This document shows positions 1 to 27,799 of a stretch of DNA of 64,000 nt, piece by piece; position 1 is the first letter of the stretch, and each line of letters begins with the position of its first letter. Made by a program: the position numbers and the translations under genes. The notes under the pieces were generated by a model. It had not been told where the DNA came from and did no database searches. It saw nothing but the letters and a program-made list of their open reading frames with translations. This DNA comes from a virus, in IMG/VR virus record IMGVR_UViG_3300048855_000013, positions 1-64,000 of that record. One strand, given 5' to 3'.

Positions 1-466
1 TCCCCGCAGGGGTTCCAGACAGGGCGCAGCGGTACGTGCTGCCAATCTCACGGAGGAGGATGGCCTGCCACGACTTTCCGTAGTTAGCCTGGCGGTGTGT
101 CTCGTCCGCGATCACCACGTCTGCGTACTGACCAGTGATGGCACCCGTCCGCATCATTTCCCAGGTGATCAGGTACCAACCAGGCATCTGCTTCTTGAGT
201 GCGCCGAACGACAGGGTGTTGACCTTCTTGTCGTTGGCAAGCTCGAACACGTTGGTGTCAGGCAGCTGCTCCTTGATGGTGGAAGTCCACGAGCGCTTGG
301 TGTTGCGGGGAAGCACAACGACAACGGTCTTCACGTTGTCCTTGCGCTTCACCCACTCAATCGCTGCGAGGGTCTTGCCCAGTCCAACTTCCCAGGCGAA
401 GAACACAGCGTCATGCTCAGCAAGACGCGCGACTTCAACCTCTTGGTAGTCGTACAGGGTTTTCAA
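1..466 (-). CDS. SNF2/DEAD-like helicase, N-terminal part (3' end lies outside the window)
   Basis: Minus-strand translation from a TTG at about 466 preceded by AGGAGG. Contains LYDYQ, a GLGKT Walker A, DETH (DExH box) and SGTP motif III. Not in the ORF track because it runs off the edge. Confidence 0.55.
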   Translation of the reverse strand, partial: MKTLYDYQEVEVARLAEHDAVFFAWEVGLGKTLAAIEWVKRKDNVKTVVVVLPRNTKRSWTSTIKEQLPDTNVFELANDKKVNTLSFGALKKQMPGWYLITWEMMRTGAITGQYADVVIADETHRQANYGKSWQAILLREIGSTYRCALSGTPAG

Positions 467-474
467 TTTACCTC

Positions 475-1209
475 CTAGTAGATGCCGTAGTTCCAGTAGC
501 CTTGGTGAACCTCGATGAGGAACTCATTGATCTTATCATAGTCGGGAAGGTCAGGTGCATGGGTGCCATCCAACTCACTTAGCAGCAGACTCTCAGTTTC
601 AGAGAGGAGTCGCATCACATCATCGTAGCTGTAGGCACCGGCCCGAATGTTCTTGGCGATGTCGAGTGACCGACCAACCAGGGGGATACCTACATCCCCA
701 TTAGCCATGTACCTACGACCCTGCACACCGAGGCGATACGCATGGTAGGCGAACTTGATGTCGTAGCCGTGCTCTGCCTCTAGGTCGGGTCGCTTCTGCC
801 CTCGCTTGCCCTGTAGAGCGGCGATCTGGCTGTGCAGGTACCCGAGGTAGGCTCGGCCTGCTTTCTTGCTCCAGAAGATGTCTCGTGACAGGATGAGAGC
901 CTCTCCTATCTCAGATGTCACCTCGTACGTAGGAAGGTGCAGAAGAGAGCCAACGGTAGGGTTACCAGCAGCAGCGAGAGAGGCAAACTTACGCAGGGAG
1001 TGGTACGTAGTGTCGGACTCTCCTGCCTTGGACTTCTCGCCTTGGGCTGCGTCACTGACGCGCTTGGTTTCGTACTTGCCAAGACCAATCACTTCCTCTT
1101 CTGTCTCTAGAACGATCCCCATGTAGTCATGGTCACTGCTCTCGGTGGCAGTGCCCTGTGCGGTGGACCCATACTCACCGAGCAGGATCAGTAGATTATC
1201 TTGCATCAT
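475..1209 (-). CDS. Pol-beta superfamily nucleotidyltransferase (minimal NTase fold plus C-terminal domain)
   Basis: GS-x9-DHD motif (GSTAQGTATESSDHDYMGIV). Strong RBS AGGAGGTGACC upstream. ATGA overlap with the next gene. Confidence 0.5.
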   Translation of the reverse strand: MMQDNLLILLGEYGSTAQGTATESSDHDYMGIVLETEEEVIGLGKYETKRVSDAAQGEKSKAGESDTTYHSLRKFASLAAAGNPTVGSLLHLPTYEVTSEIGEALILSRDIFWSKKAGRAYLGYLHSQIAALQGKRGQKRPDLEAEHGYDIKFAYHAYRLGVQGRRYMANGDVGIPLVGRSLDIAKNIRAGAYSYDDVMRLLSETESLLLSELDGTHAPDLPDYDKINEFLIEVHQGYWNYGIY

Positions 1210-2273
1210 CGGTCACCTCCTTTGGGCTCCACCATAGCCCACACCTTTTCCCTGACATCCTTGCCCTGGCGCAGTGAGAACATGAATCCTCGAAGCTCAA
1301 GAGGAATGTGGCGCTGCACAGCCAGGGCGAACGTCTTCTGGTCAGGGTCAGGGTGACCCGCGTTGTCCAGCTGACGACGAAGGAACACCCACTCCTTATC
1401 GATGCGCGAAAGGTGGTTGAACACCTCCTCGTGCAGTTCATCGTAGACTTCCTCGGCCCACTTGTACAGTTCGTCGGGCAGTTGCGCAAGCATTGCCTCG
1501 TACTTGCCATCCTTGATGGCACGCCAAATGCTCTTGCGGTTCAGCCCTGTGACCACACGGTGTAGCTCCACATAGTCAGCCTGCTTGATCTTCACACCCT
1601 TGAACTCACTCGTCCACACTACCCAGCCCTCCGAGTTGGGACGGCTGAGGTTCTGAACGATGTCCTCGAACCCGATGCCATTCTGGTTGGAGAACGCAGG
1701 CACAGGAAGGTAGGCACCCGATGCCACATGGATGTATCCGAGTGGCTGGAGGAACTCTTGGTCATCATAGTTCAGGACGATGCGGTTCTCCGGGTAGATG
1801 ATTTCGAACAGCGGAGTGTAGCCACTGTCGATCCACTCGTCTGCCATGTACGCCTTGCCCGAGGCATGGAGAATCGATGTGCCCTTGACGGCTTGCTCTG
1901 AGTTGAAGCTGCCTCGCGTAGCGATGGCAGGCGTTCCGTTCGGGGTGCGGTACAAGATACCGAGCGAGCCGTCAAACTTGTTGCCATAGGCATAGAGCGG
2001 TGCCTTCCAGTCGAGGATGGCTGGTGCCTCTGCCTCATCCCAGTTGTGCATCTTGGCGAACGGACGTGCGAGCACATCCATTGTCTCCATGTTCACAATG
2101 AGTCCACGGCACAGACGGGTCGCAGCGTTCCACCGACGAGAGAACTGTGCCTCCGGGGTGTAGTTGTAGATCACATAGTGATCGTACAGCGGGTGGTGTC
2201 GGGCAGAGATGAACCCTGCCTCCACCTCAGCTGCCAGCAGATCAACGTCCACAATTTCATTCAGTTTAGTCAC
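1206..2273 (-). CDS. ATP-dependent RNA ligase, T4 Rnl1-like
   Basis: Motif I KFDGSLGILY and a downstream TRGSFNSEQA resemble T4 RnlA KEDGSLVSTY...KSKGSIKSEQA. GTG start with GGAGGTG RBS. Confidence 0.6.
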   Translation of the reverse strand: MTKLNEIVDVDLLAAEVEAGFISARHHPLYDHYVIYNYTPEAQFSRRWNAATRLCRGLIVNMETMDVLARPFAKMHNWDEAEAPAILDWKAPLYAYGNKFDGSLGILYRTPNGTPAIATRGSFNSEQAVKGTSILHASGKAYMADEWIDSGYTPLFEIIYPENRIVLNYDDQEFLQPLGYIHVASGAYLPVPAFSNQNGIGFEDIVQNLSRPNSEGWVVWTSEFKGVKIKQADYVELHRVVTGLNRKSIWRAIKDGKYEAMLAQLPDELYKWAEEVYDELHEEVFNHLSRIDKEWVFLRRQLDNAGHPDPDQKTFALAVQRHIPLELRGFMFSLRQGKDVREKVWAMVEPKGGDR

Positions 2274-2590
2274 AGGTAAATCACCTCCGGTCCTTTAGCT
2301 TTGTTTTCTTTGATCCGCGCGTTCCGCTCATCAATTTCTGCCCATCGGTTTTCGCTGTTCTCCTTGACATAAGCAGCACTCTGCATGATGTAACTCTTTG
2401 AGCCAGCGTATCGAAGTTCTCGCAACAGTCGTGGATGACTGATGATTCCAATGAACTCATCAGGATCATCGGAAGATGGAGTAATGGTGAGCTTCCACTC
2501 ACTCCAGTCAGGATTCTCACTGGCGTCCACTACAACGGGCGGCTCCGGTGTGCCTGGTGCTGGGTGAAACAGTGCGCTTAGAAACTTCAT
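2270..2590 (-). CDS. hypothetical protein
   Basis: ORF with internal ATG at 2590 preceded by GGAGGATTG. Overlaps the stop of the CCA-enzyme gene. Confidence 0.4.
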   Translation of the reverse strand: MKFLSALFHPAPGTPEPPVVVDASENPDWSEWKLTITPSSDDPDEFIGIISHPRLLRELRYAGSKSYIMQSAAYVKENSENRWAEIDERNARIKENKAKGPEVIYL

Positions 2591-3279
2591 CAATCCTCCA
2601 TCGTGGGCTTGAGCCACATGCCACTGCCTTTGAAGGCATAGTCACGTAACTCAGGGTAGTAGTTGTCGAGTAAATGGGCAGTGTAGGTAGTGTCATGCTT
2701 GAAGCACTTGTACAACTCCTCACGTACCCTTTCTATACTGACATTGGGCAGGTTGTCAAGCACACTCAGAGTTCTCAAAGCTCGATGTAGCTCAGAGGTG
2801 AAGGCAAACTCTTTCGTCACACGGAATCGGATAGCTCGGTACATACGTAGAGCATCCTCAGTGAACACCTCTTTGGGGTCACGCACAGTGCGCAGAACCA
2901 GAGCGTAGAGGTCACGCCGCCCGCCGAACGGATCAATGATTCTGCCGATCTCATCCTCGGCCATCGCGTTGACGGTGAAGTCTCGTCGTAGCAAGTCATC
3001 CATGAGGGTGCCTGGCTCTGTGCTGTCAGGACGACGACCGTCAGAGTAGTAGCCATCCTTGCGTGCGAGAACAAAGTCCCCAGCCTCGCCCGAAGAAAGC
3101 CGAGCGCGGATGGTTCCGTACTCTGGCTTTTCCAGAAAAATTTGGCTGATTTTTCCGCGCGTGAGCCAGTCTTTCATCTCGTCGTAGCTGTCGGCAATGA
3201 CCACATAGTCGAGGTCTTTGGGGCGCAGCCCGAGCAGCTTGTCTCGGACTGCACCCCCTACGAGAAACATCTCAGGCAT
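2590..3279 (-). CDS. cca: tRNA nucleotidyltransferase (class II CCA-adding enzyme, head domain)
   Basis: FLVGGAVRD...DLDYVV...RRDFTVNA signature of class II CCA/poly(A) polymerase head domain. RBS AGGAGGAAAAG. Confidence 0.7.
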   Translation of the reverse strand: MPEMFLVGGAVRDKLLGLRPKDLDYVVIADSYDEMKDWLTRGKISQIFLEKPEYGTIRARLSSGEAGDFVLARKDGYYSDGRRPDSTEPGTLMDDLLRRDFTVNAMAEDEIGRIIDPFGGRRDLYALVLRTVRDPKEVFTEDALRMYRAIRFRVTKEFAFTSELHRALRTLSVLDNLPNVSIERVREELYKCFKHDTTYTAHLLDNYYPELRDYAFKGSGMWLKPTMED

Positions 3280-3457
3280 TCTTTTCCTCCTGCATCATAT
3301 TGATAGCTTCTCTGAGTGCGATGTACCGGTCAATCTCCCTGTCACCTATGTGCATAGGACCAAGAAACCGTAACACGCTCTGTGTTTCAGCCAATGTGAA
3401 TCCCTGGGCAGCGCATATCATCGCTGCTATATCCAAGAATGTTACGAAGATGGGCAT
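3272..3457 (-). CDS. hypothetical small protein
   Basis: 61-aa ORF in operon context with weak RBS. Confidence 0.35.
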   Translation of the reverse strand: MPIFVTFLDIAAMICAAQGFTLAETQSVLRFLGPMHIGDREIDRYIALREAINMMQEEKNA

Positions 3458-4356
3458 TAGAAGTCACCGTAGGCGACCTGAAAGGCTGAGATGCCCTTGG
3501 CTCGCCACATATCGATCACTCGGTTGCGGTCATCGAGAACGAAGTCCACATACCAGTTGTCCTTGATGTGGTTCTCGAAAATCTCATCCTTCACGATGGC
3601 ATCGTTGCGAGTATCCTTAGGAGTACGCATGAAGATGCGGTCAAAGATCACCTCGTGCTTCTTGAGCCACTGCTTGAGCACCTCACGGTAGGCTCCGTCG
3701 CGGCCCGACACAATGATGATCTGCACACCCAGGAAGGCCATCTTGTTCACCAGATCACGGACAACCCAGTCAATGCTGTCATCGATGTACTTACTGGTGT
3801 CGTAGGGACCACGATTGGTCATGTGAGCCAGGGTACCATCGATGTCTACGATAATAGCGTGTGGCAGACCAATGGTGGGCTTGTACGGCTTGAAGAGGTC
3901 GCCCTCCAGAAGTTCAGGCACAGGGGGGAAGGTTCCGTTCTTGCCGAGCTTCTTGTTGTAGAAGTCCTCGACCACCTGTGCACCCACCTGTGGAGTGCGG
4001 ATGGCATCACGACGCAGCGCCTCAGGGAGAGGTATGGGGAAGTCCTTGAACTCCACCTCTGCGCCCTCGTAGAACGCGATCACGAGAAGCTCACGGACGG
4101 ACTTGGCGTTCAGGTTGGTGTTGTCCACCACCACGTCGTAGCCCTTGCCCAGGAACTTCTTGATCTGCTCGTTCTGTAGCTCGGTGACGAGCTTCTCGGG
4201 GACACCATATCCCTTGCCGAAGTGACCCCATCGAATATTGTCACGGTTGACACGAGCGCGGTGCTGCCCCTCAGGGGCGTCGAGCACCCACCGGGTTGCC
4301 CAGGTGCTCTTTCCAGAGGCAGGAATGCCTCGGGTGATGATTAGCTTGCGAGCCAT
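3457..4356 (-). CDS. pnk: polynucleotide kinase / 3'-phosphatase (T4 Pnk-like, bifunctional)
   Basis: N-terminal P-loop GIPASGKST and C-terminal HAD phosphatase motif IVDIDGTL. Start reassigned to the ATG at 4356 with a GGAGGAACT RBS. Confidence 0.7.
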   Translation of the reverse strand: MARKLIITRGIPASGKSTWATRWVLDAPEGQHRARVNRDNIRWGHFGKGYGVPEKLVTELQNEQIKKFLGKGYDVVVDNTNLNAKSVRELLVIAFYEGAEVEFKDFPIPLPEALRRDAIRTPQVGAQVVEDFYNKKLGKNGTFPPVPELLEGDLFKPYKPTIGLPHAIIVDIDGTLAHMTNRGPYDTSKYIDDSIDWVVRDLVNKMAFLGVQIIIVSGRDGAYREVLKQWLKKHEVIFDRIFMRTPKDTRNDAIVKDEIFENHIKDNWYVDFVLDDRNRVIDMWRAKGISAFQVAYGDF

Positions 4357-4463
4357 AGTTCCTCCGCTTCGTCGTCTAGTGTAAATTCTGTTACGTTCCA
4401 CCACTCTTCATCTCCAGCGATGAGAGCCATGAGTCTTGCTTCTGCCCCGTACACGATGTACAT
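4341..4463 (-). CDS. hypothetical small protein (40 aa)
   Basis: ATG with strong AGGAGGTATC RBS. Overlaps the pnk start. Below the ORF-track size cutoff. Confidence 0.3.
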   Translation of the reverse strand: MYIVYGAEARLMALIAGDEEWWNVTEFTLDDEAEELWLAS

Positions 4464-4471
4464 GATACCTC

Positions 4472-4807
4472 CTAGTCTTTCAGCCATCCATCTCGGAGTG
4501 GCTGACCAGGCTTACGACTGCAACAGCCGTCGCAGCCGTGGATGTTCTGGTAGTTCTGCCCTACGCTATTCAAGAAGCGAGCAGAATCAGGGTCTGGGTG
4601 GCCCACACCGTGCTCACAGATACGCTCCATGATCCCTCGGTCTGTGCGCCAGTTGTGAGGCCAGTGCTCGACGTTCTCAATGGCTTCACGATCCGGGTTA
4701 TGGATCACGCAGCCATCAGCGCAGCCTGCGTTGATAGTGTGTGTCTTGAGAACGTACGCACCATCGAGCGACCGCAAATCGCCGTTTTTGTCTCTTTCGA
4801 GAAGCAT
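4472..4807 (-). CDS. Cys/His-rich hypothetical protein (putative metal-binding)
   Basis: Start reassigned to the ATG at 4807 (GGAGGTTCC RBS). CxxGC...H...HWPHNW...CEHGVGHPDPD...HGCDGCC. Confidence 0.4.
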   Translation of the reverse strand: MLLERDKNGDLRSLDGAYVLKTHTINAGCADGCVIHNPDREAIENVEHWPHNWRTDRGIMERICEHGVGHPDPDSARFLNSVGQNYQNIHGCDGCCSRKPGQPLRDGWLKD

Positions 4808-4899
4808 GGAACCTCCAAAAAATTTTTTCCATTTTCCGCGCATGGGCCTGCGCTAGTAAGACACTAACACAGGCCCACGCCGATTTTCGTTGTATTCAG

Positions 4900-6411
4900 T
4901 TATTTCCCAGCTAGAACGGCACGAATGTCGTCAAGCGACTGCCATCTGAGGAATTCACCATCTCGGTAGACATCCTTCATCAGGTCATCGTGATCGCTGA
5001 TCCACTCGTCGTACGATAGGTCATCTACAAGCACCAGATCGCCGGTAGGGCTGCTGCGCACAACGAGCCGTCCACGAGCGCTCTTCTTGGTTCCGCTGTC
5101 CGTGATGGGATTCTTGCTGATCGCCTTCTCTTCACCGTTGATCCGAACCCACGTCGCCTTGATGGCCGACGAGAAAGTGTCGCGGGTCTGGTACTGGTAG
5201 GTGTAGCTGCCGACACCGAACACGATATTGGTGGAGGCAAATCCCTTGGCTGCCAGTCGTCGGATGATTTCACGAGCGCGGTCGAAGGTGATCGAGTCAC
5301 CGTAGATCGCACCGATGTGAGGATCGAGCACCTTGTAGCCCTGTGCGTTGACCGTGCCGCCGAAGACATCCCACAGAAGCTCGATGACGCCCTTCTGCGC
5401 AGGAGTACGAGCCGACTCTACAGGATACCCGGCCTCATACACCGTGGGATTCTCACCTGTAATGATGAGCACCGGATCACCCGAGTCAGGGCGCACGACG
5501 AGCTTGCCGTCACGAGCCATGATTTCGTCCTTGAGGTCCGGGAGAATGTTCGTCAGAACGTTCCACAAATCCCAGGTGTCGGACACAACGGACACGATGC
5601 CAGCCGGGTAGAGCTTGAGCAGTCGGGCGAACGTTTCACGCTCATCCTCTTCACCGCCAGCGCACATCACCGAGTGCTCGGTGGCGGGCACAGAGCCAAG
5701 AAGCCAGCCCTCGTAGGGCTGCTCGTAGGCTGCTCCGTAGTGCTGGTCCACCCACTCCAGCGACACCAGGGAATCTGAACCCTGGAAGCTGAGAAGGTGA
5801 CCGGCACCAGAAGCCGCAGCTGCGGTGTTTCCGGCCATTCCACGGTACGAGAAGTCATGACCCTGGAACTGGACTCCTGCGAGGCCATCCTGGTCCGTAT
5901 CCTCGGCACCAGCGACCAGCAAAGTCTTGAAATGATCCGCTAGCGTAGCCGAAGTGCTCGGCTGCCAGACAGAGGCGCTGATCCACGTTTCGAGGTAATT
6001 CACCAGCCAGTAGAAGTCCGGGTGAGTGTTGCGAATCGTGAACGACGGCACCTTGATCGGCACTCGTGTGCCCTCAGGGAGGGAACCGAACGCCAGCGGC
6101 AGGTAGCCTAGTTTGTGCAGCGCACGGATGTGGTCTGAGCCGACCGTGTTCGGGCCGAGAATGGAGTTAACCCTGTTCTCGTATTCGAGAACGATGTCCT
6201 CGATGTCGCCTTCGAAGAAGTCATCGAACTGGTTGGTCAGATCGACCAGGAAGCCCTGGAGTCCGAAGTGAACAACGTGCTCGATACCCTCGATGCGCGA
6301 GCCTCGGTTCGTGTAGTTCGAGAACACCTGCTCGGTACCCTCAGGGTACTGACGACGATGGTCGAGCTTGTAGGCATCGGTCTGGAGAAGTGGTGCTACT
6401 GCCTTACTCAT
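4900..6411 (-). CDS. nicotinamide phosphoribosyltransferase-like enzyme (Nampt/NadV family; candidate Namat)
   Basis: 503 aa. N-terminus LLQTDAYKLDHRRQYPEGTE and C-terminal GTKKSARGRL are typical of Nampt. RBS GAAGGAGG. Confidence 0.7.
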   Translation of the reverse strand: MSKAVAPLLQTDAYKLDHRRQYPEGTEQVFSNYTNRGSRIEGIEHVVHFGLQGFLVDLTNQFDDFFEGDIEDIVLEYENRVNSILGPNTVGSDHIRALHKLGYLPLAFGSLPEGTRVPIKVPSFTIRNTHPDFYWLVNYLETWISASVWQPSTSATLADHFKTLLVAGAEDTDQDGLAGVQFQGHDFSYRGMAGNTAAAASGAGHLLSFQGSDSLVSLEWVDQHYGAAYEQPYEGWLLGSVPATEHSVMCAGGEEDERETFARLLKLYPAGIVSVVSDTWDLWNVLTNILPDLKDEIMARDGKLVVRPDSGDPVLIITGENPTVYEAGYPVESARTPAQKGVIELLWDVFGGTVNAQGYKVLDPHIGAIYGDSITFDRAREIIRRLAAKGFASTNIVFGVGSYTYQYQTRDTFSSAIKATWVRINGEEKAISKNPITDSGTKKSARGRLVVRSSPTGDLVLVDDLSYDEWISDHDDLMKDVYRDGEFLRWQSLDDIRAVLAGK

Positions 6412-6599
6412 CAGACCTCCTTCGTGTTGTACATGAAGCCTTCGAAGTCTGTATTGTATTCGATGGTGCCAATACCGGCTCCATCCTCGTCCTCCAAGAC
6501 GACCTTGCCGATGAACACCTCATCGACCTCGTTGAGCTTGGCGAATTCTTCCACCAACGTGCCGATACGGACCAGCTGATCGCTGCGAAGTAGTGTCAT
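6411..6599 (-). CDS. hypothetical small protein encoded between the Nampt-like and Prs-like genes
   Basis: 62-aa acidic ORF with strong AAGGAGGCAAA RBS. ATGA-type coupling on both sides. Confidence 0.4.
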   Translation of the reverse strand: MTLLRSDQLVRIGTLVEEFAKLNEVDEVFIGKVVLEDEDGAGIGTIEYNTDFEGFMYNTKEV

Positions 6600-7540
6600 T
6601 TTGCCTCCTTGATAGAAAGCTCCTCGTAAAAGTACGGGAGCAGTTTGGTGACCTTTGCACCCACAGCCTCATTGTAGGCTCCGGGATGCGAATCGGTCGT
6701 AAAGATGTTGCCGTATGCCTCAGTCAGCTGTCCAGCGTTACCCGAGAAGATACCATGTGTGACCCAGAGGTCGAGGTTCTCACGGGGAATTCCCAGCACA
6801 CCAGCAAGGCCCATAAAGGTACCTCCACCATCACAGATGTCATCCACCACTAGATAGCGACCTTCGGTAGGCGGATACTCCACCTCGACAACATCTCCGT
6901 TTCCAGCGTATTCCTGATGCGTCCACTGCGCGGGAGCAGTGAACTTGAGCAGCTTGCCACTGTCGAAGTCACGCTCTTTACCAGCGAAGTATGTGGGTAC
7001 TCCGAGCTTGTCTCCGACACGCTGTGCGCGCCTGTGAGCGCCTTTGTCAGGTGCGATGACCCCAGCATACCGGGAACCCGGTTCTGAGCCGCCCACGGCC
7101 CGCACAGTGACCCTCTCGACCGGGATGGGGTACCCCACTAGCGGAGAGATGTTCAGATAGCTGCCCCGGTCCCCTCTGTAAAGGTCGTCGGACACATCAC
7201 TGTGCGGATCGATGTACACAATGCTGTGCGCTGCGATGTTCTCGACCATGTTGCGGTAGATTTGAACTCCTGCTGGCTCTCCTCGGTCTGCACGTGCTGC
7301 TGGGAGGTAAGGCAAGAACAGGTGACGGCGAGCGTGGGTTGTAGCCATAAGCAAGTCAGCCCACATCGCTGCGACCATCAGGTCATCCGTGCTGGCACCA
7401 CGAACCACAGCGAAGTATTCGATGTATTCGATAATGTCTTCCTTGGTGATGTGCCACTCACCGCCTGGAAACTGGAACGGCTTGAAATTGGTACGGACCA
7501 GATGCCCGCTCGGGGCTCTGCCCCAGAATTCGATGCTCAT
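6596..7540 (-). CDS. ribose-phosphate pyrophosphokinase (PRPP synthetase)-like enzyme (candidate Adps)
   Basis: PRPP-binding loop YLVVDDICDGGGT plus a THGIFSGNA segment match Prs. Start set at the ATG at 7540, which overlaps the upstream stop. Confidence 0.6.
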   Translation of the reverse strand: MSIEFWGRAPSGHLVRTNFKPFQFPGGEWHITKEDIIEYIEYFAVVRGASTDDLMVAAMWADLLMATTHARRHLFLPYLPAARADRGEPAGVQIYRNMVENIAAHSIVYIDPHSDVSDDLYRGDRGSYLNISPLVGYPIPVERVTVRAVGGSEPGSRYAGVIAPDKGAHRRAQRVGDKLGVPTYFAGKERDFDSGKLLKFTAPAQWTHQEYAGNGDVVEVEYPPTEGRYLVVDDICDGGGTFMGLAGVLGIPRENLDLWVTHGIFSGNAGQLTEAYGNIFTTDSHPGAYNEAVGAKVTKLLPYFYEELSIKEAK

Positions 7541-7788
7541 TTCATCCGCCCATCTTTCTTTGCTCGTTCTGCGAATTTTTCCTGGTTGCGCTGCTCTACA
7601 TCCACCTTGCGCCACTTGCTTGTATATCCCGCATCGTAAGCCCATGCGAGCCACAAGTGGTGGGAGTTGTCGTAGCAATCGTAATCCTGATTATCGGTGC
7701 GTCCCTCGAAGAAGGTCACAGCCGCCCCAATCAGATAGACAAGTACCAGCACGAAGATAATGATCGCGATAGCTGCAATACCAGCCAT
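7537..7788 (-). CDS. small membrane protein
   Basis: N-terminal hydrophobic helix AAIAIIIFVLVLVYLIGAAV. Confidence 0.45.
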   Translation of the reverse strand: MAGIAAIAIIIFVLVLVYLIGAAVTFFEGRTDNQDYDCYDNSHHLWLAWAYDAGYTSKWRKVDVEQRNQEKFAERAKKDGRMK

Positions 7789-8462
7789 CAGAAAGCCGCC
7801 TTCTCGAAGAGGTCAACAGTCTTCACCTTGACGATGATGCGCTTACCTCGCTGATCGTACAGCGGAACGACCGGGCGTGCAACCACGCCCTCTGCCATCA
7901 CATCTGCACCCGTGTTAGTGGATGCCAGGCGGGACCAGAGGCCACGAGACACAGCCGCCACGATGTAGTCGAGGCTGACTGCTCCGATGGTAACCGGGCG
8001 CAGCACAGGGATGTTCAGCTTGTCGTAGACATCCTCTACGTTGTCTTGGGAGAGCCACGAACCGTTCACACGGATGTCGTAGCCCACAAACTCCTTGTTG
8101 GGGGAGTAGTGAGCACCCGACTGGATGCCAGCACCATAGCCTTCTCCGACGAAGATGACCTCCTTCTCACCGAACATCTCCTCGACCTCTTCTTCCACGC
8201 CGGGAGCGTTGAAGTAGCTGGCGATCTTCTCGATGAGATGACCATGCAGCTGTGCTCGGTCTGTGCGTCCCTCGATGGCGAAGTTGTGCCCATCCCAGAC
8301 AACACGGATGTTGGTGCCATCGATTTTCTCGGTAGCCGTCCAGATGTCAGAGTCTGCCAGAGCCTGCACAGTGGGGTCCACCCAGAGGGAGCGATCCACC
8401 TTCTTGATGTCCTCGGCAGAGCGCTTGAACGGCCCTGCGATCTTGTGGTATTCGTCAGCCAC
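7788..8462 (-). CDS. RNA ligase, Rnl2-like nucleotidyltransferase domain only
   Basis: Motif I EKIDGTNIRV (compare T4 Rnl2 EKIHGTNFS). 224 aa. RBS AGGAGGAAAAAG. Confidence 0.55.
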   Translation of the reverse strand: MADEYHKIAGPFKRSAEDIKKVDRSLWVDPTVQALADSDIWTATEKIDGTNIRVVWDGHNFAIEGRTDRAQLHGHLIEKIASYFNAPGVEEEVEEMFGEKEVIFVGEGYGAGIQSGAHYSPNKEFVGYDIRVNGSWLSQDNVEDVYDKLNIPVLRPVTIGAVSLDYIVAAVSRGLWSRLASTNTGADVMAEGVVARPVVPLYDQRGKRIIVKVKTVDLFEKAAF

Positions 8463-8814
8463 TTTTTCCTCCTAGTGTCTTGCGCTTCCGCGTCCAATAA
8501 CGCTGAGCGCGTAGCTCATGGTTTTTCTTGGGTGTGACAGGCTGTAGATGCTCTTTCCGAACACACGCCCGATTGTTGCACTTATGGTCGAGGTGGGGGT
8601 TGTCTTCTGGTATTTCCAGTTCAGTGTGTCGTAGATTACCACGCCGACTGATCCAGGACCAGCCGATTCGGTGTGCCTGACGCCACTGACCGCGAAACCA
8701 ATAGCGACCATATCCTCGGTGGCACTTCTTTCCTTGCCACTCGTAACATACCCACTTGCCGTTTTGTACAACATCGACGTACCCCATGAATCGAATATAC
8801 TCACTCTGATTCAC
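8455..8814 (-). CDS. HNH endonuclease
   Basis: CHRGYGRY...HRIGW...HLDHKCNNRACVRKEHL HNH/AP2-like motif. GTG start. Confidence 0.55.
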   Translation of the reverse strand: MNQSEYIRFMGYVDVVQNGKWVCYEWQGKKCHRGYGRYWFRGQWRQAHRIGWSWISRRGNLRHTELEIPEDNPHLDHKCNNRACVRKEHLQPVTPKKNHELRAQRYWTRKRKTLGGKSG

Positions 8815-8956
8815 GCAGCACTTCCCGTTCGAAACCTTGTAGGTAGATAATTTCGTTGGCTGCCTCGTTGAGGAGGTCAGCTACACCGTAACGCAGTCCT
8901 GCGTCATTGAACGCTGCGGCGCGATCACGCAGTCGGTCTACTAGATCGGTCACCAT
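8801..8956 (-). CDS. hypothetical small protein (51 aa)
   Basis: ATG with GAGGTGG RBS. Below the ORF-track cutoff. Confidence 0.3.
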   Translation of the reverse strand: MVTDLVDRLRDRAAAFNDAGLRYGVADLLNEAANEIIYLQGFEREVLRESE

Positions 8957-9232: not shown

Positions 9233-9270
9233 TTGGCTCCGCGAGTGGGATTTGAACCCACCATTATCCA
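9233..9270 (-). other. tRNA 3'-half-like element (T-arm GTGGG/TTCAAAT/CCCAC, 7-nt acceptor 3' strand, G, CCA). The 5' half does not fold.
   Basis: Reverse complement reads GTGGGTTCAAATCCCACTCGCGGAGCCA. The complementary TCCGCGA lies about 117 nt upstream, too far for a normal tRNA. Confidence 0.35.
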
Positions 9271-9390
9271 TCAGTTTCATAAGGCGATCAACCCCTCCAC
9301 TGATTTCGGACGACTGTACACCTTCGTCCATGACCCTAGCATTCGCGGATCACAGCAGTTTACCCACATGCTTAGGTGCGTCCGTCAGGA

Positions 9391-9632: not shown

Positions 9633-10550
9633 TTACTTCTGAACCTGGACGAACGGGGTAGCTCCCTCGGGAACCACAAACACCGTGCCATCCTTGTATG
9701 CGTCGATCAGCTTCTGCTGGAGCACCTGAGGAGTCAGGGACTCGGAGAGCAGACGGTTGGCATCAGCCGCAGCCTGTGCCTCCACGACCTGCGCCTGAGC
9801 GCTGATCTGGGTGGCGTTCAGGTTAGCCTGAGCCTCGGCTTCCTTCTGGTTCGCGACCTCAACGGCCTTGAGGCTGTTCTCCACGTCGTCGCTGTAGCGA
9901 ATCTCCTGGAGGTTGACGACCTCGATGTTCACACCGAACGGCTTGAGCTTGGCCTGGAGTGCATCCTGAATCTGGCCCTGAGCGGTGCCACGGTCAGCAC
10001 CACGGAAGTCCACAGCGCTGTACTGGCTCGGGACATCACGGGTTGCAGAACGGATTGCGTTCTCGATAACCTGCTTGGTGAACGCTTCCTGGGTGCGGTA
10101 CTTCTTGTAGAGGTCCGTCACCTTCTCAGGATCGATGGAGTAGACCACCGAGAGGTCGAGGTTCACCTGTGCACCGTTGGCGACTGCCGACGTGATCTGC
10201 GGTCCGGTCACTTTACCACCGGAGTAGTTCGTGTCACCGCCCGCCACGTAGGAAATCTCCTGTGCGAACAAGTCCCAGTCGCTGAACGACTGCCACGGTG
10301 CCTTGAGGTCCGACCCTGGGGTCAAGTCCTGACCAGCAATCGTGCCATCGAAGTTCAGGATGACCTTCGCTTCACCGACACTCTGCGTGTAGAAGGACGA
10401 GAAGAAGCCGATGACCAAGGCCAAGGCGATTGCACCTGCTCCTACGCCTCGCCATACCGTTCGCGGGAACGAATCTCGGAACTTGAACGAGAACAGAATT
10501 GCCCCCACAGCCACGACCGCCAGAATGACGATCACGATGATTTCAAACAT
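9633..10550 (-). CDS. SPFH/band-7 (stomatin/HflKC-like) membrane protein
   Basis: N-terminal TM helix followed by a band-7-like core and an Ala/Gln/Glu-rich coiled-coil tail. Confidence 0.55.
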   Translation of the reverse strand: MFEIIVIVILAVVAVGAILFSFKFRDSFPRTVWRGVGAGAIALALVIGFFSSFYTQSVGEAKVILNFDGTIAGQDLTPGSDLKAPWQSFSDWDLFAQEISYVAGGDTNYSGGKVTGPQITSAVANGAQVNLDLSVVYSIDPEKVTDLYKKYRTQEAFTKQVIENAIRSATRDVPSQYSAVDFRGADRGTAQGQIQDALQAKLKPFGVNIEVVNLQEIRYSDDVENSLKAVEVANQKEAEAQANLNATQISAQAQVVEAQAAADANRLLSESLTPQVLQQKLIDAYKDGTVFVVPEGATPFVQVQK

Positions 10551-27727: not shown

Positions 27728-27799
27728 GCTCATGAAGCTGAATGGTTAAGCAGCACCCTGTCACGGTGTGTGTCGCCGGTTCGATCCCGGTCATGGGCG
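27728..27799 (+). tRNA. tRNA-Asp (GTC)
   Basis: Acceptor GCTCATG/CATGGGC, AC GCACC-CTGTCAC-GGTGT, T GCCGG-TTCGATC-CCGGT. Confidence 0.65.

What the first reader, a model, noticed from the sequence alone, without database searches (positions are those of the whole stretch)
1..8814. Composite leftward 'counter-defence island': RNA repair plus tRNA end repair plus NAD rescue in one operon
About nine kilobases of one operon encode, in this order: helicase, Pol-beta NTase, Rnl1-like RNA ligase, CCA-adding enzyme, Pnk kinase/phosphatase, a Cys/His-rich protein, the Nampt-like gene, the Prs-like gene, an Rnl2-like ligase and an HNH endonuclease. Pnk plus Rnl1 is the T4 strategy against anticodon nucleases. 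A CCA-adding enzyme suggests repair of tRNA 3' ends. This co-localisation with the NAD module, together with about 25 phage tRNAs elsewhere, suggests a dedicated anti-defence locus. The unannotated small genes (3272..3457, 4341..4463, 4472..4807, 6411..6599, 7537..7788) are candidate new components or inhibitors.
Basis: inference. Interest (0 to 1): 0.75.

Follow-up and report, generated by a model that had tools for sequence, protein, structure and literature searches.

The report
Phage RNA-repair plus NAD-rescue gene array
An uncultured phage of actinobacteria packs a tRNA-repair kit, an NAD+-rebuilding pair and a tRNA CCA-adding enzyme side by side; all three are known kinds of module that mix and match between related phages, so the array is a mosaic rather than a new system.

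Summary
All ten named genes are present, in the stated order, on the minus strand. They are tightly packed, usually overlapping by 1-16 nt.

The "Nampt/Prs" pair is NARP1 (Adps + Namat). The Namat-like protein carries the Namat-specific motif GSYTYQYQTRD. Its best solved relative is SpbetaL1 Namat (511 bits, against about 220 for true Nampt).

The rest is a Pnkp/Rnl1/RlaP RNA-repair cassette plus an Rnl2-type adenylyltransferase-domain-only ligase. The "CCA enzyme" is a 229-aa head-and-neck-only version.

Relatives show a mosaic:
- A close relative, assembled as three contigs, keeps every part visible.
- A more distant relative (L086) keeps the RNA-repair backbone but lacks NARP1 and the CCA gene.
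- NARP1 lies near Pnkp in only 1 of 31 Pnkp-anchored metagenome loci, about the base rate.
- Similar juxtapositions recur in cluster L mycobacteriophages, large Microbacterium phages and contig L101.

At least 17 of the 19 phage tRNAs lack an encoded CCA, so tRNA maturation rivals "3'-end repair" as the role of the CCA enzyme.

Verdict: known modules, plausibly a counter-defence accretion zone. "One dedicated system in one operon" is not shown. The uncharacterised extras (a Cys/His protein family, g106, a 116-nt tRNA-like element) are the most novel leads.

The parts
1..466 (-). N-terminal part of an SNF2/ResIII-type helicase; first gene of the replication block downstream of the array
   Evidence: PF04851 2e-9, PF00176 7e-9, phrog_62 1.5e-23. 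It is 452 aa on the source contig L082. 76% identical in L086 and 99% in L093.
475..1209 (-). RlaP family Pol-beta nucleotidyltransferase (RNA-ligase-associated)
   Evidence: PF10127 7e-21 and phrog_388 2e-52. A GS...DHD motif is visible in the sequence. It lies directly downstream of Rnl1 with a 4-nt overlap. The same Rnl1-RlaP-helicase order occurs in L086, and in L093 with two small genes between Rnl1 and RlaP.
1206..2273 (-). Rnl1-type (T4 RnlA-like) RNA ligase
   Evidence: PF09511 2e-13, phrog_562 7e-69, TIGR02308 4e-15 (below that model's cut-off). KFDG motif I is present. 44-51% identical to the ligase next to Pnkp in phages Yappy, CN1A and L086.
2590..3279 (-). Short (229 aa) class II CCA-adding / poly(A)-polymerase-type nucleotidyltransferase: head and neck only
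   Evidence: PF01743 1e-22 and phrog_24229 7e-53. It matches only positions 23-207 of 396 in the CCA model NF009814 and lies far below that cut-off. GGAVRD, DLD, RRD and EDxxR motifs are present. Homologues in other phages are consistently 243-247 aa. Homologues occur in 430 of 50,697 phage records.
3272..3457 (-). s61: small gene between Pnkp and the CCA gene
   Evidence: Overlaps both neighbours and has a GGTGA-type purine-rich site upstream. Partly conserved in the 67-aa gene after Pnkp in L086 (50% over 28 aa, 2e-5). No Pfam hit.
3457..4356 (-). Pnkp: bifunctional polynucleotide 5'-kinase / 3'-phosphatase
   Evidence: PF25109 HAD_PNKP 3e-47 plus AAA_33 6e-15, and phrog_505 4e-87. The P-loop GxPxSGK(S/T), the RD motif, DIDGTLAHM and DDR are invariant in an alignment with five phage Pnkps.
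4341..4463 (-). s40: 40-aa ORF between the Cys/His gene and Pnkp
   Evidence: GGAGG lies upstream and it overlaps Pnkp by 16 nt. The close relative L183 has an ORF of the same length and position, 85% identical. It is absent from L086.
4472..4807 (-). Cys/His-rich 111-aa protein of a large uncharacterised family
4841..4880 (-). 20-bp hairpin followed by an A6U6 run, between Namat and the Cys/His gene; probably a terminator, attenuator or processing site
   Evidence: dG -39.9 kcal/mol, z = -5.4, matched by 0 of 200 shuffles. A hairpin plus U run occupies the same position upstream of the Cys/His gene in L183 and, with a different sequence, in L086, which lacks NARP1.
4900..6411 (-). Namat (nicotinamide ADP-ribose transferase), second enzyme of NARP1; annotated elsewhere as Nampt
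   Evidence: phrog_448 8e-189. The best solved relatives are 9W5X/9W5W, which are SpbetaL1 Namat: 511.6 bits against about 220 bits for human and bacterial Nampt. The Namat-specific motif GSX-phi-X-phi-X-phi-TRD is present as GSYTYQYQTRD (sequence; motif from PMC12774641).
6411..6599 (-). s62: small gene between Adps and Namat
   Evidence: Overlaps both neighbours and has GGAGG upstream. Only one non-identical homologue is known (81%), in the same position in L181. No Pfam hit.
6596..7540 (-). Adps (ADP-ribose pyrophosphate synthetase), first enzyme of NARP1; Prs-like
   Evidence: phrog_619 3e-60. It is far below every NCBIfam Prs cut-off (62.8 against 113 bits), and PDB Prs hits are weak (3e-5). 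The motif VVDDICDGGGT is present. A homologue lies within about 10 kb, mostly just upstream of Namat, in 71 of 81 Namat-bearing loci.
7537..7788 (-). s83: small predicted membrane protein that travels with the Rnl2-type ligase
   Evidence: A hydrophobic N-terminal segment is visible. Conserved directly downstream of the ligase in L086 (49%) and L181 (51%), so with or without NARP1.
7788..8462 (-). Rnl2-type ligase consisting of the adenylyltransferase domain only (224 aa)
   Evidence: PF09414 9e-15 and phrog_548 3e-21. Weak PDB match to the T4 Rnl2 N-terminal domain 1S68, covering KIDG and the motif V region. 60% identical in L086 and 97% in L181.
8455..8814 (-). HNH endonuclease (likely homing type)
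   Evidence: PHROG HNH families at about 1e-12; Pfam HNH_3 at 4e-4, below the cut-off. The gene caller for the source contig did not call it, but the ORF is intact and 84% identical in L181. It is absent from L086.
9234..9349 (-). Outside the reported interval: a 116-nt tRNA-like element with encoded CCA, at the head of the array
   Evidence: It has an acceptor-like 7-bp stem, a D-like stem, two internal hairpins and a T arm with loop UUCAAAU. The homologue in L086 preserves all 15 stem pairs, 8 of them by changes on both sides. It is about 98% identical in L181. ARAGORN and Rfam do not call it.
9633..10550 (-). Outside the reported interval: an SPFH/Band-7 membrane protein that accompanies the RNA-repair backbone in relatives
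   Evidence: PF01145 8e-24. 68% identical in L086, 97% in L181, 47% in phage Yappy and 60-65% in L100 and L102, always within a few kb of Pnkp.

Best explanation
The interval is part of a long, co-directional early-gene array of an uncultured actinobacteriophage. Its nearest cultured relatives infect Curtobacterium, Clavibacter, Microbacterium, Rhodococcus and Mycobacterium. Three separable modules sit side by side.

1. A conserved RNA-repair backbone. Pnkp converts the 2',3'-cyclic-phosphate and 5'-OH ends left by tRNA-cutting nucleases into 3'-OH and 5'-phosphate ends. RlaP adds back one or two nucleotides lost from the 3' end. The Rnl1-type ligase seals the break. A domain-reduced Rnl2-type ligase and an uncharacterised Cys/His protein accompany them.

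2. NARP1. Adps pyrophosphorylates ADP-ribose. Namat then joins it to nicotinamide and rebuilds NAD+ after host NADase defences have split it.

3. A minimal CCA-type nucleotidyltransferase with a coupled 106-aa partner. Its most economical job is to add CCA to the phage's own tRNAs, nearly all of which lack an encoded CCA. 3'-end repair would be a possible second use.

The modules work independently. They are neighbours because NARP1 and the CCA pair occupy exchangeable cargo slots in the backbone. The NARP1 slot is bounded downstream by a conserved hairpin.

Basis: gene identities, motifs and comparative gene orders are shown here. The enzymatic activities and the counter-defence roles are inferred from characterised homologues.
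For: Domain assignments.

Catalytic motifs intact: Pnkp alignment; KxDG in both ligases, GS...DxD in RlaP, GGAVRD/DLD/RRD in the CCA enzyme, and the PRPP-loop-like DDICDGGGT in Adps (sequences).

Namat identity: the best PDB hit is SpbetaL1 Namat at 511 bits, against about 220 bits for Nampt, and the motif GSYTYQYQTRD is present. A Prs-like/Adps homologue lies within about 10 kb, mostly just upstream, in 71 of 81 Namat loci.

The RNA-repair cassette is a real unit. Rnl1 is adjacent to Pnkp in 17 of 31 metagenome loci and in phages Yappy and CN1A. Rnl1-RlaP-helicase occurs in L086, and in L093 with two small genes between Rnl1 and RlaP.

Modularity: L086 has the backbone at 50-76% aa identity. 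It carries 58aa-DUF6915-160aa-64aa where the window has Adps-s62-Namat, and a single 92-aa gene where the window has CCA-g106. The hairpin upstream of the Cys/His gene is present in both.

A close relative keeps all parts.

17 of the 18 ARAGORN-called tRNAs lack an encoded CCA.

Published function of homologues: NARP1 (10.1101/2024.02.11.579819); RlaP (PMC12776372); phage RNA-repair sets including RlaP and CCA enzymes (PMC7824862).
Against: - Nothing here shows expression, activity or a defence-specific phenotype.
- The host and its defence repertoire are unknown.
- The direction of change (gain in this lineage, or loss in L086) cannot be determined from the few relatives available.
- The CCA enzyme lacks the body and tail domains that bind tRNA in characterised class II enzymes, so even its substrate is uncertain.
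- The Rnl2-type protein lacks the C-terminal domain. From memory of the T4 Rnl2 work, T4 Rnl2 needs that domain for complete nick sealing.
- No promoter was found between the hairpin and the Cys/His gene, so the downstream genes may still depend on read-through.
- NARP1-Pnkp adjacency in two lineages (this phage and cluster L mycobacteriophages), plus L101, could hint at more than chance.
Confidence: 0.65

Rival explanations
1. Ordinary early-gene neighbourhood. These are auxiliary RNA, nucleotide and cofactor metabolism genes that support phage translation and replication: maturing about 20 phage tRNAs, keeping NAD+ available, and processing phage RNAs. They cluster only because early genes cluster. 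No dedicated anti-defence role is needed.
For: - The array runs on into replication genes (helicase, DUF3310, AAA_24) on the left and about 12 kb of small unknown ORFs on the right, with no island boundaries.
- 17 of the 18 ARAGORN-called tRNAs need CCA addition.
- NARP1 near Pnkp occurs at about the base rate: 1 of 31 loci against 4% of phage records.
- The consensus promoter/terminator scan is no better than shuffled sequence.
Against: - NARP1 homologues were shown experimentally to act by reversing NADase defences, and Namat prefers ADPR-PP, a substrate that arises from NAD+ cleavage products.
- Pnkp plus Rnl1 has no known housekeeping role in phages other than repair of nuclease-cut tRNA (established for T4).
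- RlaP prefers damaged RNA ends.
- Relatives place further conflict-type genes in the same zone: rIIA/B and SpoT-like in Cece; RyR, cREC, 2H and an RF-1/GGQ rescue factor in L101.
Confidence: 0.2
2. Integrated pathway. The NAD and RNA modules are functionally coupled. For example, the HAD phosphatase / cyclic phosphodiesterase of Pnkp, or the Cys/His protein, could convert phosphorylated ADP-ribose species (ADPR-1''-phosphate made by aRES defences, or ADPR cyclic phosphate formed from ADPR-PP) back into ADP-ribose for NARP1. That would be an extended NARP1 analogous to NARP1-AP with its Macro phosphatase.
For: - The order Adps-Namat-small gene-Pnkp occurs both here and in cluster L mycobacteriophages, although the Pnkps are only 37% identical.
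- NARP1 operons are known to recruit phosphatases.
- Phosphoesterases flank NARP1 in Pumpernickel (2H/Acb1-like, metallophosphoesterases) and in L101 (2H, cREC, Metallophos).
- ADPR-PP decays to an ADPR cyclic phosphate.
Against: - In L086, L091, Yappy and CN1A the same Pnkp sits with RNA ligases and without NARP1.
- A conserved hairpin separates Namat from the Cys/His-Pnkp unit.
- All Pnkp residues known from T4 for polynucleotide end healing are conserved.
- The Cys/His family occurs in many contexts unrelated to either module.
Confidence: 0.08
3. The CCA-type enzyme with g106 is a dedicated counter-measure against host toxins that damage or block tRNA 3' ends (3'-end nucleases, nucleotidyl- or pyrophosphoryl-transferase toxins).
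For: - It is embedded between Pnkp and Rnl1 in the repair cassette and is translationally coupled to both sides.
- CCA-g106-Rnl1 is kept in three relatives.
- The Pnkp 3'-phosphatase next door could clear blocked 3' ends.
- CCA enzymes are listed among phage RNA-repair genes in PMC7824862.
Against: - The phage's own tRNAs give it an obvious maturation substrate.
- L086 keeps the repair cassette without it.
- The enzyme lacks tRNA-binding body and tail domains.
- In Microbacterium phage Cece the homologue sits with NAD and ppGpp genes rather than repair genes.
Confidence: 0.2

Closest known systems
NARP1 (Adps + Namat) NAD+ reconstitution pathway of phages (Osterman et al., 10.1101/2024.02.11.579819; Namat structure PMC12774641)
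   Same: - A Prs-like gene is followed by a Nampt-like gene on the same strand.
- The Namat-specific selectivity-helix motif is present.
- The best solved relative is SpbetaL1 Namat.
- The Prs-like protein fails the Prs thresholds, as expected for Adps.
   Different: - A 62-aa gene is inserted between the two enzymes. It is conserved only in the closest relative.
- No Macro (Adpp) or RyR accessory gene is present.
- Activity was not tested.
T4 Pnkp + Rnl1 tRNA repair that counters the PrrC anticodon nuclease (established knowledge)
   Same: A bifunctional kinase/HAD-phosphatase with all catalytic motifs, and an Rnl1-family ligase, in one co-directional cassette.
   Different: - Here the pair is interrupted by s61, the CCA-type gene and g106.
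- It is extended by RlaP, a second ligase and a Cys/His protein.
- In T4 the two genes are not adjacent (from memory).
- The nuclease being countered is unknown.
RlaP-containing RNA-repair gene sets described computationally (Burroughs & Aravind 2016, PMC5062991; Iyer et al. 2021, PMC7824862) and biochemically (PMC12776372)
   Same: A PF10127 NTase lies immediately next to an ATP-dependent RNA ligase, together with Pnkp, a CCA enzyme and many phage tRNAs. This is the combination those papers describe for large phages.
   Different: This is a roughly 70-kb-contig phage rather than a jumbo phage. Those papers treat NAD-salvage and RNA-repair systems as separate categories, whereas here they abut.
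Cluster L mycobacteriophages (e.g. LeBron gp71-gp74, gp85)
   Same: The order Adps - Namat - small gene - Pnkp, with an RNA ligase a few kb downstream. Namat is 56% identical.
   Different: - LeBron's small gene is unrelated to the Cys/His protein (no hit).
- Its ligase is a 425-aa PF09414 type.
- No RlaP or CCA homologue was detected in the 20-kb stretch examined.
- Its Pnkp is only 37% identical.
Metagenome contig L101 (Ga0164242_10000083, 111 kb)
   Same: One co-directional block of about 17 kb holds Adps, Namat, Pnkp, Rnl1, RlaP and a Cys/His-family protein.
   Different: It has different intervening genes: NMNAT-like, RyR, 2H, cREC, an RF-1/GGQ rescue factor and a metallophosphoesterase. 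It has no short CCA enzyme within reach. NARP1 is 4 kb from Pnkp rather than adjacent.

Membership tests
NARP1: Namat | Selectivity-clamp helix motif GS-X-phi1-X-phi2-X-phi3-TRD, with aromatic X (PMC12774641) | tested here: met
   The window protein reads GSYTYQYQTRD (translation; motif definition).
NARP1: Namat | Closer to characterised Namat than to true Nampt | tested here: met
   9W5X/9W5W (SpbetaL1 Namat) score 511.6 bits (E 2e-152). Human and bacterial Nampt score about 220 bits.
NARP1: Adps | A Prs-like gene directly upstream of Namat that is not a bona fide Prs | tested here: met
   phrog_619 3e-60. TIGR01251 scores 62.8 bits against a cut-off of 113. The gene lies upstream of Namat on the same strand, separated only by s62.
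NARP1 | Makes NAD+ from ADP-ribose, ATP and nicotinamide, and rescues phage from NADase defences | not testable with these tools
   Needs enzyme assays and infection assays.
T4-type Pnkp | N-terminal P-loop 5'-kinase plus C-terminal HAD 3'-phosphatase with DxDGT | tested here: met
   AAA_33 6e-15 and HAD_PNKP 3e-47. GIPASGKST, DIDGTLAHM and DDR are conserved across six phage Pnkps.
Rnl1 (T4 RnlA) RNA ligase | PF09511 nucleotidyltransferase domain with lysine motif KxDG | tested here: met
   PF09511 scores 50.9 bits, above the 28.3 cut-off. KFDG is present. The NCBIfam equivalog TIGR02308 is below its cut-off (55.7 against 242), so this is a distant member.
Rnl2 RNA ligase | Adenylyltransferase domain (PF09414) with KxDG and motif V | tested here: met
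   PF09414 scores 55.6 bits, above the cut-off of 27. KIDG and the VKVK region align to the T4 Rnl2 N-terminal domain 1S68.
Rnl2 RNA ligase | C-terminal domain of T4 Rnl2 (residues about 250-334) | tested here: not met
   The protein ends at residue 224. Its matches cover only positions 25-223 of the 326-position Rnl2 model and fall below the cut-off. It should be called Rnl2-like, NTase domain only.
RlaP | PF10127 Pol-beta NTase encoded next to an RNA ligase | tested here: met
   PF10127 scores 75.5 bits, above the cut-off of 23. It overlaps the Rnl1 gene by 4 nt.
Class II CCA-adding enzyme | Head domain with motifs A-D (GGxVRD, DxD, RRD, EDxxR) | tested here: met
   PF01743 scores 81.1 bits. 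The motifs are visible in the translation.
Class II CCA-adding enzyme | Full-length architecture with tRNA-binding body and tail domains, scoring above the equivalog cut-offs | tested here: not met
   229 aa. It matches positions 23-207 of 396 at 126 bits, against a cut-off of 290. It belongs to a family of short phage proteins of about 245 aa. CCA, CC, A or poly(A) specificity cannot be told from the sequence.
HNH endonuclease | HNH motif domain | tested here: inconclusive
   PHROG HNH families hit at about 1e-12, but Pfam HNH_3 scores 20.4 bits, below the 24.8 cut-off. The ORF is conserved at 84% in L181.
Single operon | One promoter, no internal terminator, co-transcription | tested here: inconclusive
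   Genes overlap or abut. However, a strong conserved hairpin plus U run follows Namat, and the promoter scan is uninformative. Transcript data are needed.

The most novel reading that the evidence does not exclude
The uncharacterised conserved pieces may be new working parts of a phage tRNA-protection system, not filler. Three candidates stand out.

1. The Cys/His protein. Its family has more than 1000 members, no Pfam model and no solved fold relative, and 19 invariant residues suggest metal sites. Its gene lies directly upstream of Pnkp, with overlapping reading frames in L086.
2. g106, which could supply the tRNA-binding function that the truncated CCA enzyme lacks.
3. The 116-nt tRNA-like RNA at the head of the array. 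Its stems covary and it has an encoded CCA. It could act as a decoy or scaffold for tRNA-targeting nucleases or for the repair enzymes, rather as Y RNAs serve Ro-type repair complexes.

Alternatively, Pnkp or the Cys/His protein may extend NARP1 by recycling phosphorylated ADP-ribose.
Probability: 0.12. Interest if true: 0.7.

Novelty: new member of a known kind. Interest (0 to 1): 0.35.

Why it matters
If the array acts as inferred, one small stretch of an actinophage genome carries answers to two of the commonest last-line bacterial defences: cutting tRNA and destroying NAD+. It would also show how such answers are assembled, by dropping self-contained cassettes into fixed slots of a conserved backbone. 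That makes the locus a practical place to look for further counter-defence genes in poorly studied actinophages. Candidates include the genes that occupy the same slots in relatives (DUF6915 and its neighbours in L086 and L091), the Cys/His family and g106. It adds no new principle, because each module and the idea of clustered phage counter-defence genes are already published.

Tried and rejected
- DNA-level search of 50,697 phage records found no close relative; the best hit was 79% over 335 nt.
- A search of IMG/VR with the SPFH protein found nothing.
- The small proteins (s61, s40, s62, s83, g106, Cys/His) had no tblastn matches in 84 Namat- or Pnkp-bearing loci and no Pfam hits.
- I suspected that the 'RNA ligase' next to NARP1 in Microbacterium phage Pumpernickel matched the window's Rnl2-type gene. 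It does not: it is a 2H/Acb1-like phosphoesterase.
- I suspected that Cece gp238 (106 aa, downstream of its CCA gene) was a g106 homologue. The similarity is not significant (E 0.065).
- s62 as a RyR-domain protein: no Pfam hit.
- LeBron gp73 as a Cys/His homologue: no hit.
- Rfam and ARAGORN do not recognise the tRNA-like element, and its folding energy alone is unremarkable (z = -1.4). The MAFFT alignment of the two divergent copies was not structurally consistent, so I did not build a covariance model and counted pairs by hand.

Full report
**Source and setting.** The window is part of a 70.4-kb Logan assembly contig (SRR35925185). It has no close relative among 50,697 deposited phage genomes (best DNA hit 79% over 335 nt). 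By protein similarity the nearest cultured relatives are phages of Actinobacteria: Curtobacterium phage Yappy, Clavibacter phage CN1A, large Microbacterium phages, and Rhodococcus, Gordonia and Mycobacterium phages. GC skew indicates minus-strand coding from position 1 to about 21.5 kb. A cluster of tRNA genes lies on the plus strand at 26.6-30.6 kb.

**Checking the observation.** In order of transcription (high to low coordinates) the array is:

| Coordinates | Gene |
|---|---|
| 8455-8814 | HNH |
| 7788-8462 | Rnl2-type ligase |
| 7537-7788 | s83 |
| 6596-7540 | Prs-like |
| 6411-6599 | s62 |
| 4900-6411 | Nampt-like |
| 4472-4807 | Cys/His protein |
| 4341-4463 | s40 |
| 3457-4356 | Pnkp |
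| 3272-3457 | s61 |
| 2590-3279 | CCA-type NTase |
| 1206-2273 | Rnl1-type ligase |
| 475-1209 | RlaP |
| 1-466 | start of an SNF2-type helicase |

Most genes overlap a neighbour by 1, 4, 8 or 16 nt, and most are preceded by GGAGG. The only gap inside the interval is 92 nt, between the Nampt-like gene and the Cys/His gene. The window holds 19 tRNA genes: 18 from ARAGORN plus one more from Rfam.

**What the parts are: the NAD module.** The Nampt-like/Prs-like pair is NARP1. In NARP1 the Prs-like enzyme (Adps) makes ADP-ribose pyrophosphate and the Nampt-like enzyme (Namat) converts it with nicotinamide into NAD+.
- The window protein carries the Namat-specific helix motif as GSYTYQYQTRD.
- Its best solved relative is SpbetaL1 Namat, 9W5X/9W5W, at 511 bits. 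True Nampt proteins score about 220 bits.
- The Prs-like protein falls far below every curated Prs threshold.
- A Prs-like homologue lies within about 10 kb, in most cases immediately upstream, in 71 of the 81 Namat-bearing loci compared (80 from IMG/VR plus phage Pumpernickel).

**What the parts are: the RNA module.** Pnkp has every catalytic motif of the T4 enzyme. The Rnl1-type and Rnl2-type ligases both have the lysine motif KxDG. The Rnl2-type protein consists of the adenylyltransferase domain only. RlaP is a clear PF10127 member. That family was recently shown to add one or two nucleotides to damaged RNA 3' ends. The 'CCA-adding enzyme' is a 229-aa head-and-neck version of a class II enzyme. 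It belongs to a family of short phage proteins of about 245 aa and lacks the tRNA-binding body and tail.

**Are the small genes real?** Conservation in relatives supports most of them:
- s61: partly conserved in L086.
- s40: 85% identical in L183.
- s62: 81% identical in L181.
- s83: about 50% identical in L086 and L181, always directly after the Rnl2-type gene.
- g106: 57-62% identical in two relatives; in both (and in a short duplicate contig) it lies between the short CCA gene and Rnl1, with overlapping stop and start codons.
- The HNH ORF was not called by the contig's gene caller, but it is intact and 84% identical in L181.

The Cys/His protein belongs to a family of more than 1000 proteins with no Pfam model. 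It has 19 invariant residues, including five cysteines and five histidines. A confident AF2 model has no solved structural relative. The only viral structural matches are uncharacterised actinophage proteins. Its gene sits directly upstream of Pnkp in the window, L183, L086 and L091. In three other contigs, and in cultured Gordonia and Streptomyces phages, it sits in unrelated contexts.

*Tier 1, a close relative.* A metagenome assembly (GCA_040384165.1) gives three contigs with 83-99% aa identity for the enzymes; the small ORFs are more divergent (s62 81%, p104 77%, g106 62-65%, s83 51%). Together they reproduce the array:
- L181: SPFH ... HNH - Rnl2-type - s83 - Adps - s62 - Namat.
- L183: Namat - Cys/His - s40 - Pnkp.
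- L093: CCA - g106 - Rnl1 - two small genes - RlaP - helicase.

*Tier 2, L086 (a 68.8-kb contig).* It shares SPFH (68% aa), the Rnl2-type ligase (60%), s83, Cys/His (55%), Pnkp (58%), Rnl1 (51%), RlaP (62%) and the helicase (76%), in the same order. Where the window has Adps-s62-Namat it has four other genes, one of them DUF6915. Where the window has CCA-g106 it has one unrelated 92-aa gene.

*Tier 3, more distant phages.* L091, L100-L104, Yappy and CN1A keep Pnkp with an RNA ligase, often with SPFH, the helicase or the Cys/His protein.

**How often do the modules sit together?**
- Among 31 Pnkp-anchored metagenome loci of at least 8 kb, Rnl1 is adjacent in 17 and NARP1 is within 10 kb in one.
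- Namat homologues occur in 4.0% of phage records and Pnkp homologues in 4.2%.
- Among 80 Namat-anchored viral contigs, Pnkp is within 10 kb in 10. A short CCA gene is within 10 kb in 15 contigs, belonging to a few lineages of large phages.

The RNA-repair cassette is therefore a genuine conserved unit. NARP1 and the CCA pair are optional cargo.

**A boundary inside the 'operon'.** The 92-nt gap after Namat holds a perfect 20-bp hairpin (dG -39.9 kcal/mol, z = -5.4) followed by A6U6 and the ribosome-binding site of the Cys/His gene. L183 has the same hairpin. L086, which lacks NARP1, has a hairpin of different sequence plus a U run at the same place upstream of its Cys/His gene. The structure therefore belongs to the backbone and marks the downstream edge of the slot that holds NARP1 here and DUF6915 with its neighbours in L086. 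Transcript data are needed to say whether it terminates, attenuates or only processes transcripts. No promoter is evident between it and the Cys/His gene.

**Does the juxtaposition mean anything?** Similar neighbourhoods do recur in independent lineages:
- Cluster L mycobacteriophages have Adps - Namat - small gene - Pnkp, with an RNA ligase 4.7 kb further on.
- Microbacterium phage Cece has, within 13 kb, rIIA/rIIB-like genes, Adps, Namat, a PnuC-like transporter, an adenylyltransferase, a SpoT-like protein and the short CCA gene.
- Contig L101 has, in one 17-kb co-directional block, an NMNAT-like gene, Adps, Namat, a RyR-domain protein, a 2H phosphoesterase, a cREC domain protein, HNH, Pnkp, Rnl1, RlaP, an RF-1/GGQ-domain protein, a Cys/His-family protein and a metallophosphoesterase.

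This fits the published view that phages gather genes against attacks on translation and on NAD+, and that NARP1 operons recruit accessory enzymes. It supports 'accretion zone of counter-defence and translation-support genes'. It does not support 'one dedicated system', because the closest backbone-sharing relative lacks two of the three modules.

**The CCA enzyme.** Seventeen of the 18 ARAGORN-called tRNA genes lack an encoded CCA; only tRNA-Leu has one. Maturation of the phage's own tRNAs is thus the simplest role. 3'-end repair is possible but not required. The missing tRNA-binding domains make the substrate uncertain. They also make the tightly coupled g106 a candidate partner. The g106 model has a confident beta-beta-beta-alpha core with only weak structural matches.

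**Most likely mechanism.**
- *Shown here:* gene identities, intact motifs, gene order, modular presence and absence, the hairpin, and CCA-less tRNAs.
- *Inferred from characterised homologues:* Pnkp heals the ends, RlaP fills in lost nucleotides, Rnl1 seals cleaved tRNA, Adps and Namat rebuild NAD+ from ADP-ribose and nicotinamide, and the short NTase adds CCA.
- *Inferred from the comparative pattern:* the modules act independently and were assembled by cassette exchange.

**Novelty.** Each module is a new, divergent member of a described kind. The combination in one array has not, to my knowledge, been described. Neither of the two NARP1 papers I searched mentions RNA ligase, polynucleotide kinase or tRNA, but I did not search the literature exhaustively. 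The combination is not a new kind of system. The uncharacterised conserved elements are where something new could lie.

Noticed in passing
window 9234-9349, minus strand (also L086 4599-4713 and L181 about 5950-6065): A 116-nt tRNA-like element lies in the 180-nt gap upstream (in the sense of transcription) of the array. It has a 7-bp acceptor-like stem, a 3-bp D-like stem with a GG loop, two internal hairpins, a canonical T arm (GUGGG-UUCAAAU-CCCAC) and a discriminator plus encoded CCA. The divergent copy in L086 keeps all 15 stem pairs, 8 of them through changes on both sides, but ends ACGA instead of GCCA. ARAGORN and Rfam do not call it. It recalls the T4 stable RNAs C and D, whose functions are unknown (PMC9697503). 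A conserved -35/-10-like pair (TTGATC-17-GATAAT; CTGATC-17-GACAAT in L086) lies inside it, so a promoter reading is a rival.
   Followed up: partly
window 9356-9378, minus strand: The 23-mer CACCTA[AG]GCATGTG[GT]GTAAACTG ends 6 nt before the tRNA-like element. It occurs once in the window (none expected by chance) and again at the same place in L086 (two substitutions) and L181. Exact matches also occur in four unrelated AT-rich IMG/VR contigs (L096-L099). There it lies 25-60 nt upstream of start codons, with a second, diverged copy (4-5 mismatches) nearby in three of them. It looks like a promoter or operator conserved across very different phages; what recognises it is unknown.
   Followed up: partly
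L021 (4 copies), L044, L053/L054, L058 (2 copies), L063: A second family of long (95-130 nt) tRNA-like elements occurs in Namat-bearing IMG/VR contigs. Members share an acceptor stem AGTCAGG/CCTGACT and a T arm ACAGGTTCGAATCCTGT, and most have a tRNA-like D arm (GGCGGAATTGGTAGACGC). A variable 40-70 nt stretch replaces the anticodon arm.
   Followed up: no
window 9633-10550, minus strand: An SPFH/Band-7 membrane protein accompanies the RNA-repair backbone in relatives (L086 68%, L181 97%, Yappy 47%, L100 and L102 60-65%). More distant homologues lie within 10 kb of Namat in about a dozen IMG/VR contigs. The reason for the association is unknown.
   Followed up: no
L101 1-17000 (metagenome contig Ga0164242_10000083): An independent and larger composite block: NMNAT-like, Adps, Namat, RyR-domain protein, 2H phosphoesterase, cREC domain, HNH, Pnkp, Rnl1, RlaP, RF-1/GGQ-domain (ArfB-like) protein, Cys/His-family protein and a metallophosphoesterase, all on one strand.
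   Followed up: partly
L001 15190-15729 (Microbacterium phage Pumpernickel gp206): The gene annotated 'RNA ligase' next to NARP1 is a 2H phosphoesterase (2'-5' RNA ligase superfamily / Acb1-like), not an ATP-dependent ligase. With the metallophosphoesterases and phosphatase on the other side of NARP1 (beyond Namat), it may form another extended NARP1 neighbourhood.
   Followed up: partly
window 27728-27799, plus strand: Rfam finds a tRNA here (55.4 bits) that ARAGORN did not report.
   Followed up: no
window 2474-2590 (g106 residues 1-39): The first 39 residues of g106 are almost invariant across three relatives whose middle part is only 57-62% identical. This suggests a conserved binding peptide or an overlapping nucleic-acid signal.
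   Followed up: no
L086 6828-7247 and L091 7885-8289: A DUF6915 protein occupies, in two relatives, the slot upstream of the Cys/His-Pnkp unit that holds NARP1 in the window. That makes it a candidate alternative cargo gene of unknown function.
   Followed up: no
L091 about 8880-8945 and about 7480-7520; L085 about 600-640: Short tRNA-like or T-arm-like hairpins (GGTTCGAxTCC loops) recur in intergenic regions of related phages, including directly upstream of the Cys/His gene in L091.
   Followed up: no
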